From Escherichia coli (GTDB taxonomy: Bacteria > Pseudomonadota > Gammaproteobacteria > Enterobacterales > Enterobacteriaceae): a stretch of DNA of 64,000 nucleotides. The stretch is taken from assembly GCF_030013205.1 (NCBI RefSeq), contig NZ_CP122648.1; one strand, written 5' to 3'. Made by a program: the position numbers. Below are positions 30,001-33,000 of this stretch, one piece after another (position 1 is the first letter of the stretch; each line of letters begins with the position of its first letter).

Positions 30001-33000
30001 ATCAATCAGGGCCTTCACTCTTTTCGTTTTACCCGCGTTTTTGGGGTAATAGAGATACACTGGCGGGTAGGTTTTCCAGTAGCTCTCCATCACCGGAATA
30101 AAGCGCTCCCTGTCCGGCTGTAACTGCCAGACAGGCTCAAACAAGCGCCCAATTCCCAGCCCGTTACGGATCCCGTCTGCCATAACGTCAATATCGTTGC
30201 TGATTAACTGCCCCGGCATCTCAACGGTCAACTGCTCACCGCGATCGTTCAGGAGCAGCGGAAGGATGCGGTTGTTGGTGATAAAACGGTAACCAATCAG
30301 CTGGTGATGACAGAGATCTGCCGGCACTTCAGGCGTTCCATGTCGGGAGAGATACGCTGAGAATGCATATAATCCTTCACGAAACGGTTTCATTAACGGT
30401 CGGGCCCCCCCCTCCCTCAAGAATATCGCCAAAACGGATCCCCAGATCAAAACGCTCTTTGATGATATTCACGGTACCGTCGTAGACCGAAATTTCTAAC
30501 TGTATACCCGGATATTGCTGACAGAATTCTGCCATCGCAGGCTTAAGAATTAACAGGTAGGCAAAACGCGAGAGCGTAATTCGCACCATCCCTGAGGGCT
30601 CCTGATGCTGGTCGCGAATGCTTTCAAGTGAGTTTTCCAGCGACTCCACCGCCGCAGCGGTCTGTTCCAGCAATAATTGACCGGTTTCCGTCAGCTCTAT
30701 ACGGCGGGTCGTACGCACAAAAAGCGGATGACCGATATACTCTTCCAGCAGATTTAGTGCATTGCTGACGGAGGGAGGCGTAATTTCCAGTTTCCTTGCG
30801 GCTGCCGAAATATTGCCCTCCCGCGCAATGCTCTGGAAGATGCGAATCTGGTTATAAAGAGCGTTATTCATAATGTTTTCCTAAAGCAATTCTCGCCTGA
30901 TTATTAGGTACAGTCTAAAAATGCTTAAGTCAATGACCCTCTAATCTTCCTGAAATACGCCTCTTATACTTTAGTCTCTTTCTACTACGACCTGAGTTCA
31001 GGAGACTATGATGCGAATTTTATGTCTGGATATCCCTGCCCCTGGAGCATCGCTGGAGAAATATGCTCCGCACCTCAACGCTGAAGCGCTGCACGCCTGG
31101 GGATTGTATAAATCAGGCTTCATCCGCGACATCTACTTCCGTCAGGACAGACCTGGCGTCGCTATTTTTCTTGAATGTGACTCTGTCGATGAAGCGATGA
31201 ACGTTATGGCCGAATTCCCGTTGGCAAAAGCAGGCTTACTAAGCTTCGAGTGTATACCGCTTGGCTCCTTTATTAACTGGGAAAATCTCTTCGCCGATGA
31301 ATTTAAAAATAAAGAGTGAGGACCGATATGAAACCTGCATATAAACCAGTGCTATGTGTCGTTTCCAGCCATCCGATTAAAGGCGCATCCGGTGTACCAA
31401 CCGGTTTTTTCCTGGCCGAGCTGACTCATCCGCTGAAAGTACTGGAAGATGCCGGAATAAAAACAACAATAGCCAGTATTCGCGGGGGGCAGCCACCGGT
31501 GGATGGATTTAACCTCAGCGACCCTGTTAACGCCTGGTACTGGAACGAAACCGATTTTCAGCAGCGCCTGGCAACAACACCTGCGTTATCCGAGCTGAAA
31601 GGTGCCGATTACAGCGCAGTTTTCTTTGCAGGTGGTCATGGGACCATGTGGGATTTCCGTGATAATCAGGATGCCCAGCGTATTATCCGCGAAGTGTATG
31701 AAAGTGATGGGATTGTCTCAGCCGTCTGCCACGGGCCTGCGGCATTGGTTGACGCAAAACTCAGTAGCGGCGAATACCTGATAAAAGGGAAAAATGTGGC
31801 GGCCTTTACCAACAAGGAAGAGGAAGAAGTTCACACAACAGATGTGGTTCCCTTCCTGCTTGAAACCGCACTTCGCGAGCATGGTGCGCTTTATCATGAA
31901 GCTCCAAACTGGTCTGAAAACGTGGTTACCGACGATCGCCTTATCACGGGGCAGAATCCCGCTTCAGCACATGGGGTTGGTGTGGCGCTGTTAAATGCAC
32001 TCCGCCGGACAGCTTAATTAATTCCTTACTTGGCCGGTTTAAGTCAGCCACGATCCGGCCTTTTTTCAGGAGCTGAATATGAAAACACTACCTCCAGTCG
32101 CACTAGGTACATGGTCCTGGGGCACAGGCTTTGCCGGCGGCGACACCGTCTTTGGTAATCATCTTTCTGATACTCAGATGGCAGAAGTGTTCACTGCGGC
32201 CATGAGTAAGGGCCTCAATCTCTGGGATACCGCAGCAGTATATGGTATGGGGAGTTCCGAGACTGCGCTGGGAGCATTAGTCCATCAGTTTCCCCGCGAG
32301 AACATAATTTTATCCACCAAATTCACGCCGCAGATTGCGGACAAGCAGTCTGCGCAGCCTGTCAGCGATATGCTTGAGGCCAGCCTTGGGCGCTTGGGCG
32401 TGGACGCGATTGATATCTACTGGATCCATAATCCCCTCGACGTCGAAAAATGGACGCCAGGATTGATCCCACTTTTACAAAACGGTAAGGTAAAACGCGT
32501 AGGTGTTTCCAACCACAATCTGGCACAAATCAGACGCGCCAATGAAATCCTTAACGCTTCCGGTTATTCCCTCAGTGCAGTACAAAATCACTACAGCCTG
32601 CTCTATCGCGCTTCTGAAGAGGCCGGGATCCTTGATTATTGCCGACAAAATAACATCACGTTCTTTGCTTACATGGTCCTGGAGCAAGGCGCGCTCAGTG
32701 GTCGTTATGATTCAAATCATCCCATGCCTGCCGGGAGTGGCCGGGCCGAAAGTTATAACGCAGTACTGCCGCAGATAGAAAGACTAACTGCCGCCATGAA
32801 AAAAATGGGAGCCGAAAGGAATGCCAGCGTGGCACAGATAGCCATCGCATGGGCTATTGCGAAAGGTACCCTTCCCCTCGTTGGTGCGACTAAAGTCCAT
32901 CACGTTCTGGACGCCGCCTGCGCTTCAGACATCCAGTTACGCGATGAGGAAATCATCCTGCTGGAACAACTCGCCGCAGAGACCAGAGTGGATACACGAG

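What the first reader, a model, noticed from the sequence alone, without database searches (positions are those of the whole stretch)
30377..30450. LysR regulator of the islet is split at a G8/C8 homopolymer
The HTH half and the effector-binding half of the LysR gene are in different frames, and the switch falls on an 8-nt C run (30405-30412 on the plus strand). Homopolymers of this length are prone to slipped-strand mispairing and to sequencing error, so this is either a true regulator knockout that would deregulate the divergent operon, a phase-variable switch, or an assembly artefact.
Basis: seen in the sequence. Interest (0 to 1): 0.45.

Follow-up and report, generated by a model that had tools for sequence, protein, structure and literature searches.

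The report
LysR gene broken at unstable C-run
A LysR-type regulator gene in this pig-associated E. coli is genuinely frameshifted at an 8-base C run; the run arose recently from an ordinary Val-Val coding sequence and has since changed length repeatedly, so this is a real, ordinary gene knockout at a newly formed mutation hotspot.

Summary
C8 lies at 30405-30412, and the minus-strand LysR gene (29974-30871) changes frame on it. C7 or C10 restores one ORF of 298 or 299 aa; C9 does not.

- **Most genomes have no homopolymer.** Of 456 complete E. coli genomes with this stretch, about 360 carry CCACCACCCC (Gly-Gly-Val-Val-Ala, intact). Another 74 carry CCACCCCCCC, also intact.
- **The pure run is confined to pig isolates among the complete genomes.** All 17 with an uninterrupted run are from pigs: C7 x1, C8 x11, C9 x2, C11 x3.
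- **The founder was in frame.** Draft assemblies hold an intact C10 allele. SNPs order the history as C10, then K40N (still C10), then C9, then C8 (this window). C7, C8, C9 and C11 arose separately on the sister background.
- **It is not a local artefact.** The window is identical over 20.5 kb to a short-read contig with C8. It differs from another short-read contig only by C8 versus C9.

Best reading: a real, heritable knockout at a derived, slippage-prone tract, most likely non-adaptive decay. Most alleles are out of frame, and the tract is not a conserved feature of the gene. Adaptive phase variation is not excluded. The effect on the divergent reductase/DJ-1 operon is inferred only.

The parts
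30405..30412 (-). C8 run on the plus strand (G8 on the coding strand). It is the frameshift site. It derives from the common CCACCACCCC (coding GGG GTG GTG GCC) through an in-frame C10 founder.
29974..30871 (-). The whole LysR-family regulator pseudogene. At 898 nt it is 2 nt short of the intact 900-nt allele.
   Evidence: Annotated as 'frameshifted' in identical RefSeq genomes. The intact 299-aa allele WP_001057776.1 is in strain 118UI. Pfam HTH_1 plus LysR_substrate.
30377..30871 (-). N-terminal ORF of 164 aa. It holds the HTH (residues 7-65), the linker helix and about the first 65 residues of the effector domain, then 9 out-of-frame residues (PTVNETVS after the Gly run) and a stop.
29974..30404 (-). 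Remainder of the effector-binding domain (ARPLMKPF... to the stop codon), now in another frame and without its own natural start.
30362..30362 (-). A (G in all other lineages). Gives Ser171Phe. Private marker of the whole pure-run lineage.
30752..30752 (-). A (C elsewhere). Gives Lys40Asn in the HTH domain. Marks the window's sub-lineage and arose while the tract was still C10 (L020).
30872..31007 (.). Divergent intergenic region, the presumed regulatory region. It includes SNP 30907 G (A elsewhere). Only weak T-N11-A candidates were found.
31008..37170 (+). Divergently transcribed gene cluster, the presumed target. In order: 103-aa protein of unknown function, DJ-1/PfpI, aldo/keto reductase, split amidohydrolase, KefF-like NAD(P)H oxidoreductase, aldo/keto reductase, ABM-domain protein, CMD-domain protein.

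Best explanation
This is a real, heritable frameshift that inactivates a LysR-type regulator, and it happened by replication slippage at a homopolymer that is itself a recent invention. In most E. coli that carry the gene, the site reads GGG GTG GTG GCC (Gly-Val-Val-Ala) and the gene is intact. In one lineage, which among the complete genomes is found only in pig isolates, both T's of the Val codons became G. That fused three short G runs into an in-frame G10 (Gly-Gly-Gly-Gly). Because indel rates rise steeply with run length, the tract then lost or gained bases repeatedly: C10 to C9 to C8 on the window's branch, and C9, C8, C7 and C11 on the sister branch. The C8 state in the window truncates the protein after residue 156, inside the effector-binding domain, so no full-length regulator is made. 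Shown here: the lesion, its reproducibility, the ancestral state, the order of events and the recurrent length changes. Inferred: that slippage is the mechanism; that the T-to-G changes were favoured by misalignment next to the runs; that the process is non-adaptive decay; and that the divergent reductase/DJ-1 operon loses its LysR-dependent control.
For: - Lesion: C8 at 30405-30412 splits the ORF, and C7 or C10 repairs it.
- Reproducibility: identical C8 in 11 complete genomes, where PGAP marks the gene 'frameshifted'. K_EC180 was sequenced with PacBio plus Illumina (PMC8071739). The window is identical over 20,495 nt to Logan contig ERR9829667_26, and its only difference from SRR14934093_19 is C8 versus C9.
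- Ancestral state: 311 exact CCACCACCCC plus about 50 more with a flanking SNP, 74 exact CCACCCCCCC, and 17 pure runs, out of 456 genomes.
- In-frame C10 founder: seen in draft assemblies in four different genomic contexts (L016-L019) and in L020.
- Order of events: nested SNPs at 30362, 30752 and 30907 give the sequence.
- Hotspot: at least 6 independent length changes, against about 7 other variable sites in 4.9 kb across the same set of sequences. That is roughly 1000-fold or more per site.
- Length dependence: no tract-length variant was seen among the roughly 360 genomes with the common allele, whose longest run here is 4 bases. 16 of the 17 complete genomes with a pure run are out of frame.
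- Mechanism: in E. coli, indel rates are an exponential function of homopolymer length (PMC8510543).
- Assembly quality: the assembly is not generally error-ridden. The neighbouring autotransporter is broken by a 628-bp deletion, not a run-length change, and the operon genes are intact.
Against: - Homopolymer lengths are the least reliable calls in any assembly.
- On the window's N40 background, the protein collection shows C9 on 33 contigs and C8 on only 1-2, while all 7 long-read complete genomes say C8. A one-base platform bias cannot be fully excluded, although C9 is also out of frame.
- ETEC6333 (C7) and ETEC6334 (C8) have chromosomes that differ by only 5 bp in length. That fits either very fast slippage or a consensus error.
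- Many public contigs of the other lineage (CCAC5, CCAC8) come from assemblies with several broken neighbouring genes. This shows such errors do exist in the databases.
- No read-level data could be inspected.
- Nothing here measures expression of the regulator or of the operon.
Confidence: 0.8

Rival explanations
1. Adaptive phase variation. The G-run works as a reversible ON/OFF switch (contingency locus) for the regulator. Populations would then always contain cells with and without LysR control of the detoxification-type operon, and selection keeps the tract.
For: - Lengths 7 to 11 all occur among near-identical isolates.
- Both in-frame states (C10, C7) and out-of-frame states (C8, C9, C11) occur on one background.
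- C7 (ETEC6333, plus two further assemblies with the same protein) looks like a return to frame by continued contraction.
- The interrupting A was lost independently in two lineages, which could hint at selection for a longer run.
Against: - The tract is absent from about 95% of genomes that carry the gene, so it is not a conserved design feature.
- Only about 19% of pure-run contigs are in frame, below the one-third expected even without selection.
- Every other change in the gene in this lineage is an amino-acid replacement (S171F, K40N, Val-Val to Gly-Gly at a conserved hydrophobic strand), which looks like relaxed constraint.
- No switching within a culture has been shown.
- E. coli has active mismatch repair, and to my knowledge it is not known for repeat-based switching of regulator genes.
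Confidence: 0.12
2. Sequencing or assembly artefact. The isolate really has an in-frame C7 or C10 (or the Val-Val sequence) and the gene is intact.
For: G/C homopolymers of 8-11 nt are error-prone on all platforms. Error-ridden public assemblies of the same gene exist. Long-read and short-read data disagree on which length is most common on the N40 background.
Against: - C8 is reproduced in 11 complete genomes from at least two projects, including one PacBio plus Illumina genome, and in short-read contigs with otherwise zero differences over 20.5 kb.
- The competing call on this background is C9, which is also out of frame.
- In-frame C10 on the N40 background is rare (2 contigs) and lacks the 30907 G that the window carries.
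- No other homopolymer-type breaks occur in the neighbouring genes.
Confidence: 0.05
3. The frameshift is bypassed during expression. RNA polymerase slippage on the G8 run (or ribosomal frameshifting) would yield some in-frame mRNA or protein, so the regulator is only turned down, not lost.
For: From general knowledge only: transcriptional slippage on long homopolymers can rescue frameshifted genes in some bacteria, and C8 is one base from the in-frame C7. No tool result bears directly on this.
Against: As far as I know, efficient slippage is documented mainly for A/T runs of 9 or more, and G/C runs of 8 slip poorly. No frameshift-stimulating element was looked for or seen. Rfam finds nothing in the window.
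Confidence: 0.03

Closest known systems
Poly-G/C contingency loci of Neisseria, Haemophilus and Campylobacter (repeat-mediated phase variation; e.g. PMC5084427, PMC3025981)
   Same: A G/C homopolymer of 7-11 nt inside an ORF. Its length sets the reading frame and differs between otherwise near-identical isolates.
   Different: Those tracts are conserved features of surface-structure or restriction-modification genes, in species with many such loci and with demonstrated high-frequency reversible switching. Here the tract is a derived state of one lineage, in a cytoplasmic regulator, in a mismatch-repair-proficient species. No switching has been demonstrated and most alleles are OFF.
Mycobacterium tuberculosis glpK 7C homopolymer (reversible frameshifts giving drug tolerance; bioRxiv 10.1101/717272)
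   Same: A short C run in a non-surface gene, in an organism not known for classical phase variation. Frameshift variants recur in clinical isolates.
   Different: For glpK, reversibility and a selectable phenotype were shown experimentally and the tract is the normal state of the gene. Here neither the phenotype nor reversion is shown, and the tract is not the normal state.
Microevolution at homopolymeric tracts in Bordetella pertussis (PMC1891110)
   Same: Tract-length polymorphism among highly clonal isolates, giving frameshifted genes. It is a mixture of true switching and one-way gene loss.
   Different: A different organism with many such tracts. No birth of a tract from an interrupted sequence is documented there, as far as I read.
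Ordinary frameshift pseudogenes of accessory LysR-family regulators in E. coli
   Same: A single indel splits an accessory regulator of about 300 aa. PGAP already labels it 'frameshifted' in identical genomes.
   Different: Here the full trajectory is visible: interrupted run, then pure in-frame run, then a series of length variants. The site has mutated at least six times within one shallow clade.

Membership tests
LysR-type transcriptional regulator (LTTR) | N-terminal winged helix-turn-helix (Pfam HTH_1) | tested here: met
   HTH_1 PF00126 at residues 7-65, E = 3.9e-21
LysR-type transcriptional regulator (LTTR) | C-terminal effector-binding domain (Pfam LysR_substrate) on the same polypeptide of about 300 aa | tested here: not met
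   In the repaired or common allele, LysR_substrate spans 89-293 (E = 2.2e-22) in a 299-aa protein. In the window the domain is cut at about residue 155 and the two parts are in different frames. The window therefore carries a pseudogene of an LTTR, not a functional member.
LysR-type transcriptional regulator (LTTR) | Divergently transcribed target with a T-N11-A dyad box in the intergenic region | tested here: inconclusive
   The divergent gene starts 136 nt away. Only weak T-N11-A candidates were found, with 4 of 6 symmetric pairs, and no consensus promoter in the intergenic region.
Named LTTR equivalogs (YafC, GcvA, TtdR, AaeR and others) | Score above the curated NCBIfam cut-off | tested here: not met
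   The best match is YafC at 162.8 bits against a cut-off of 470. The protein is a generic LysR-family member. Its closest solved structures are 3mz1, CrgA (3hhg) and AphB (3t1b).
Repeat-mediated phase-variable (contingency) locus | A repeat tract in the ORF whose length sets the reading frame | tested here: met
Repeat-mediated phase-variable (contingency) locus | Tract-length polymorphism among otherwise near-identical isolates | tested here: met
   C8 versus C9 is the only difference in 20.5 kb. C7 to C11 occur within a clade that has about 7 other variable sites in 4.9 kb.
Repeat-mediated phase-variable (contingency) locus | Reversible ON/OFF switching at high frequency within a clonal population | not testable with these tools
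   This needs read-level data or a fluctuation assay. The only hint is the in-frame C7 in ETEC6333 next to C8 in the near-identical ETEC6334.
Repeat-mediated phase-variable (contingency) locus | The tract is a conserved feature of the gene across the species or lineages | tested here: not met
   About 360 of 456 genomes have CCACCACCCC, 74 have CCACCCCCCC and only 17 have a pure run.
Assembly artefact | The called tract length is not reproduced in independent data sets or platforms | tested here: not met
   C8 is reproduced in 11 complete genomes, one of them PacBio plus Illumina (PMC8071739), and in the short-read contigs L014 and L031.

The most novel reading that the evidence does not exclude
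A contingency locus caught at birth in E. coli. Substitutions that merge short runs (GGGGTGGTGG to G10, with the first step also taken independently in a human-associated lineage) created a hypermutable tract. That tract would now work as a reversible ON/OFF switch of a LysR regulator controlling a carbonyl/quinone-detoxification-type operon in pig-adapted pathogenic E. coli, giving a bet-hedging advantage in the gut.
Probability: 0.1. Interest if true: 0.6.

Novelty: new member of a known kind. Interest (0 to 1): 0.3.

Why it matters
In practice, this regulator should be annotated as a pseudogene in this lineage, and its tract length should not be trusted from a single assembly.

Biologically, it is a clean natural example of how a mutation hotspot is born. 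Two base changes turn an ordinary Gly-Gly-Val-Val coding stretch into a 10-base run, which then breaks the gene again and again within a very shallow clade.

If the switching proved to be reversible and selected, it would be a rare case of repeat-based phase variation of a transcription factor in E. coli. The tract could also serve as a fast-evolving marker for subtyping pig ETEC and edema-disease clones.

Tried and rejected
- **Length classes from alignments.** Counting tract lengths from megablast match lengths was misleading at first. The common CCACCACCCC aligns to C8 as two 1-nt insertions, so it has the same identity as a C10 would. I fixed this with synthetic C10, CCACCCCCCC and CCACCACCCC queries.
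- **The 52 unassigned genomes.** I suspected further tract variants. Sampling showed the common tract plus a flanking SNP (TTCACG to TTCTCG) in both non-intermediate genomes I examined.
- **Protein look-ups as a proxy for tract length.** These work for C9, C10, C7 and the N40 background. The 'K40 C8' and 'K40 C11' products, however, are also encoded by CCAC5 and CCAC8 alleles of the other lineage. The DNA check showed 9 of 10 and 6 of 10 places were of that kind, and several came from assemblies with broken neighbouring genes. Those counts were discarded.
- **Descent from the human-lineage allele.** I considered that the pure run came from CCACCCCCCC by a 2-bp deletion. I rejected this because the pig lineage has the backbone of the common allele (30731 A, no 30883 deletion) and an in-frame C10 sits at its root.
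- **LysR binding box.** The search found only weak candidates, and the promoter scan found nothing in the intergenic region.
- **RNA families.** The Rfam scan of the window found nothing.
- **Literature.** PMC3315296 and PMC2831843 gave nothing specific to E. coli. No paper was found for the ETEC40xx and ETEC63xx genomes, so their sequencing platform is unknown to me.
- **Not run.** I judged a metagenome scan, structure prediction and a remote-homology search unnecessary for the question.

Full report
**1. What is in the window**

The plus strand reads ACGGTCGGG-CCCCCCCC-TCCCTCAAG, with the C8 run at exactly 30405-30412. Two minus-strand ORFs overlap across it. ORF 30377..30871 is 164 aa and starts MNNALYNQIRIF. 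ORF 29974..30450 ends in ...DFLISTTGR.

Editing the run in silico to C7 or C10 gives one ORF of 298 or 299 aa. C8 and C9 do not. In the repaired protein, Pfam finds HTH_1 at residues 7-65 and LysR_substrate at 89-293. The break, at about residue 155, is therefore inside the effector-binding domain and not between the two domains.

A C8 run is not improbable in itself. Shuffles give 1.14 +/- 1.36 per window, and 59 of 100 contain at least one. It is, though, the only G/C run of 8 or more in the 64 kb.

**2. Where the window comes from**

The region is E. coli. It runs lsrK, a split ECSE_1600-family autotransporter, hipBA, the LysR gene, and then a divergent cluster. That cluster holds a 103-aa protein of unknown function, DJ-1/PfpI, an aldo/keto reductase, a split amidohydrolase, a KefF-like oxidoreductase, a second aldo/keto reductase, and ABM-domain and CMD-domain proteins.

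The LysR gene is accessory: 483 of 5,426 complete genomes have it. Seven complete genomes, all from pigs, match the 951-nt query at 100%. In those records PGAP already marks the gene 'frameshifted'.

**3. The common state is not a homopolymer**

This is the main result. In strain 118UI and most other genomes the site reads CCACCACCCC. On the coding strand that is GGG GTG GTG GCC, giving Gly-Val-Val-Ala in an intact 299-aa protein, WP_001057776.1.

Exact-match counts with 92-nt queries, out of 456 genomes holding this stretch:

| Tract | Genomes | Gene |
|---|---|---|
| CCACCACCCC, exact | 311 | intact |
| CCACCACCCC plus a flanking SNP | about 50 | intact in L012; cut short at its 3' end in L010 |
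| CCACCCCCCC (Gly-Gly-Gly-Val, WP_001523294.1) | 74 | intact |
| CCAC8 (AR_0067) | 1 | frameshifted |
| CCAC5 (Nord122) | 1 | frameshifted |
| Uninterrupted C run | 17 | in frame only at C7 |

The 17 pure-run genomes are all from pigs or wild boar. They split as C8 x11, C9 x2 (O139:H1, France), C7 x1 (ETEC6333, annotated intact as WP_282954004.1) and C11 x3 (Japan). No complete genome has C10.

**4. History of the tract**

The pure-run lineage has the backbone of the common allele plus one private SNP, 30362 A (Ser171Phe). It lacks the markers of the CCACCCCCCC lineage (30731 G and a 1-nt deletion at 30883). The interrupting A's were therefore lost independently in two lineages.

Exact look-ups in the 15-billion-protein collection found the in-frame C10 product (Gly-Gly-Gly-Gly) on 20 contigs on the K40 background and on 2 contigs on the N40 background. 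At the DNA level, C10 occurs in four different genomic contexts (L016-L019) and in L020.

Aligning about 4.9 kb gives a nested series:

| Step | State | Loci |
|---|---|---|
| 1 | Common allele CCACCACCCC | L006 |
| 2 | C10, K40 background | L016-L019 |
| 3 | C10 plus K40N (30752 A) | L020 |
| 4 | 30907 G added, C9 | L015 |
| 5 | C8 | window, L014, K_EC180 |

On the K40 background the tract separately became C9 (L003, L021-L023), C8 (L002, L031), C7 (L004) and C11 (L005, L037, L039, L043, L044).

That makes at least six length changes at one site. Across the same set of sequences there are about seven other variable positions in 4.9 kb, an excess of roughly three orders of magnitude per site. 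This fits the rule that indel rates in E. coli rise exponentially with homopolymer length (PMC8510543).

The two T-to-G changes each extend an existing G run. That is what transient-misalignment ('dislocation') mutagenesis produces (PMC3105016, PMC3643592). This step is inference.

**5. Real or artefact?**

Several results point to real:
- The window is identical over 20,495 nt to contig ERR9829667_26, which carries C8.
- It differs from SRR14934093_19 at one position only, the tract (C9).
- K_EC180, which has C8, was sequenced with PacBio plus Illumina (PMC8071739).
- The neighbouring genes are intact in these contigs.
- The upstream autotransporter is broken by a 628-bp deletion, not by a run-length change.

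Caveats remain:
- On the N40 background, the collection has C9 on 33 contigs and C8 on 1-2, while all seven complete genomes say C8. The C9 contigs shown come from one SRR149340xx accession series, so they are probably not independent samples.
- ETEC6333 (C7) and ETEC6334 (C8) look like the same clone, since their chromosome lengths differ by 5 bp.
- The proteins I first counted as 'K40 C8' and 'K40 C11' are mostly CCAC5 and CCAC8 alleles of the other lineage. Several come from assemblies with multiple broken neighbouring genes, so I discarded those counts.

Even if the window's true length were C9, the gene would still be out of frame. Restoring it would need an error of -1 or +2 bases that recurred across independent assemblies.

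**6. Function**

The protein is a generic LysR-family member. Its best NCBIfam model, YafC, scores 163 bits against a cut-off of 470. The nearest solved structures are 3mz1, CrgA (3hhg) and AphB (3t1b).

In those alignments the two Val residues match the hydrophobic L-I / L-R / L-I pair of the conserved '..LIAR..' strand in the first effector subdomain. Gly-Gly there may already weaken the protein.

All other changes in the gene in this lineage are amino-acid replacements: S171F and K40N. Only about 19% of pure-run contigs are in frame. Both points fit relaxed constraint rather than a maintained switch.

The C8 product keeps the HTH domain, the linker and part of the effector domain. Whether it still binds DNA is unknown.

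The effect on the divergent cluster is also untested. LysR-type regulators usually activate their divergent targets, so loss of induction is at least as likely as 'deregulation'. I found only weak T-N11-A candidates and no consensus promoter in the intergenic region.

**7. Verdict**

The lesion is a true frameshift at a derived, slippage-prone homopolymer, and the assembly-artefact reading is unlikely.

The defining features of an evolved contingency locus are only partly met. The tract sets the frame and is polymorphic in length, but it is not conserved, most alleles are OFF, and reversibility is not shown.

This is a known kind of event, a homopolymer frameshift pseudogene. What is less usual is that the birth of the hotspot and its later lengths can be followed step by step. 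Interest is modest.

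Noticed in passing
window 22985-27777 (+): The ECSE_1600-family autotransporter is split into a 157-aa ORF (which carries the ESPR signal-peptide domain in the identical contig L014) and a 1431-aa ORF. The cause is a 628-bp deletion at about 23377, not a multiple of three, relative to the intact 1806-aa gene of strain 118UI. This is a second pseudogene next to hipBA, and it is not a homopolymer event.
   Followed up: partly
window 33114-33805 (+): The amidohydrolase gene of the divergent cluster is split into three overlapping ORFs (33114..33284, 33193..33663, 33614..33805). The same fragmentation is annotated in strain 118UI, which has an intact LysR gene. This break therefore predates the LysR frameshift.
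   Followed up: partly
window 29821-29826 (+), intergenic between hipA and the LysR 3' end: A C6 run within CTCCCCTCCCCCCGG is one base shorter (C5) in the K_EC180 complete genome. That genome is otherwise identical to the window across the 1.95 kb (29450-31400) aligned. This is a second small run-length difference, either real or a long-read error.
   Followed up: no
window 30907 (intergenic) and 30752 (Lys40Asn): Within the roughly 4.9 kb compared, both SNPs that define the window's sub-lineage fall in the LysR system: one in the HTH domain and one in the divergent regulatory region. This could be coincidence, relaxed constraint or compensation.
   Followed up: partly
L018 11670-18548 (GCA_019180315.1): In one genome with the C10 allele, a filamentous-phage-like element is inserted between the LysR gene and hipA. 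It carries secretin, Zot, a phage DNA-binding protein and a CRI/G2P replication protein.
   Followed up: no
L021 (SRR14934061 and 11 other samples), corresponding to window 34394: A 1-nt deletion near the 3' end of the KefF-like oxidoreductase gene shortens the called product from 190 to 183 aa in one C9 sub-lineage. This may be further decay of the cluster.
   Followed up: no
L007, L009, L025-L030, L032-L036, L038, L040-L042: The mainly human-associated allele CCACCCCCCC (a C7 run) also appears as CCAC5 (-2) and CCAC8 (+1) in many public contigs and in two complete genomes, Nord122 and AR_0067. Several of these contigs have multiple broken neighbouring genes, so real slippage and long-read error cannot be told apart without reads.
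   Followed up: partly
L007-L009, L011, L013: In the CCACCCCCCC lineage the LysR gene is flanked by an ISNCY-family transposase remnant instead of hipA. The islet therefore sits in at least two different genomic contexts.
   Followed up: no
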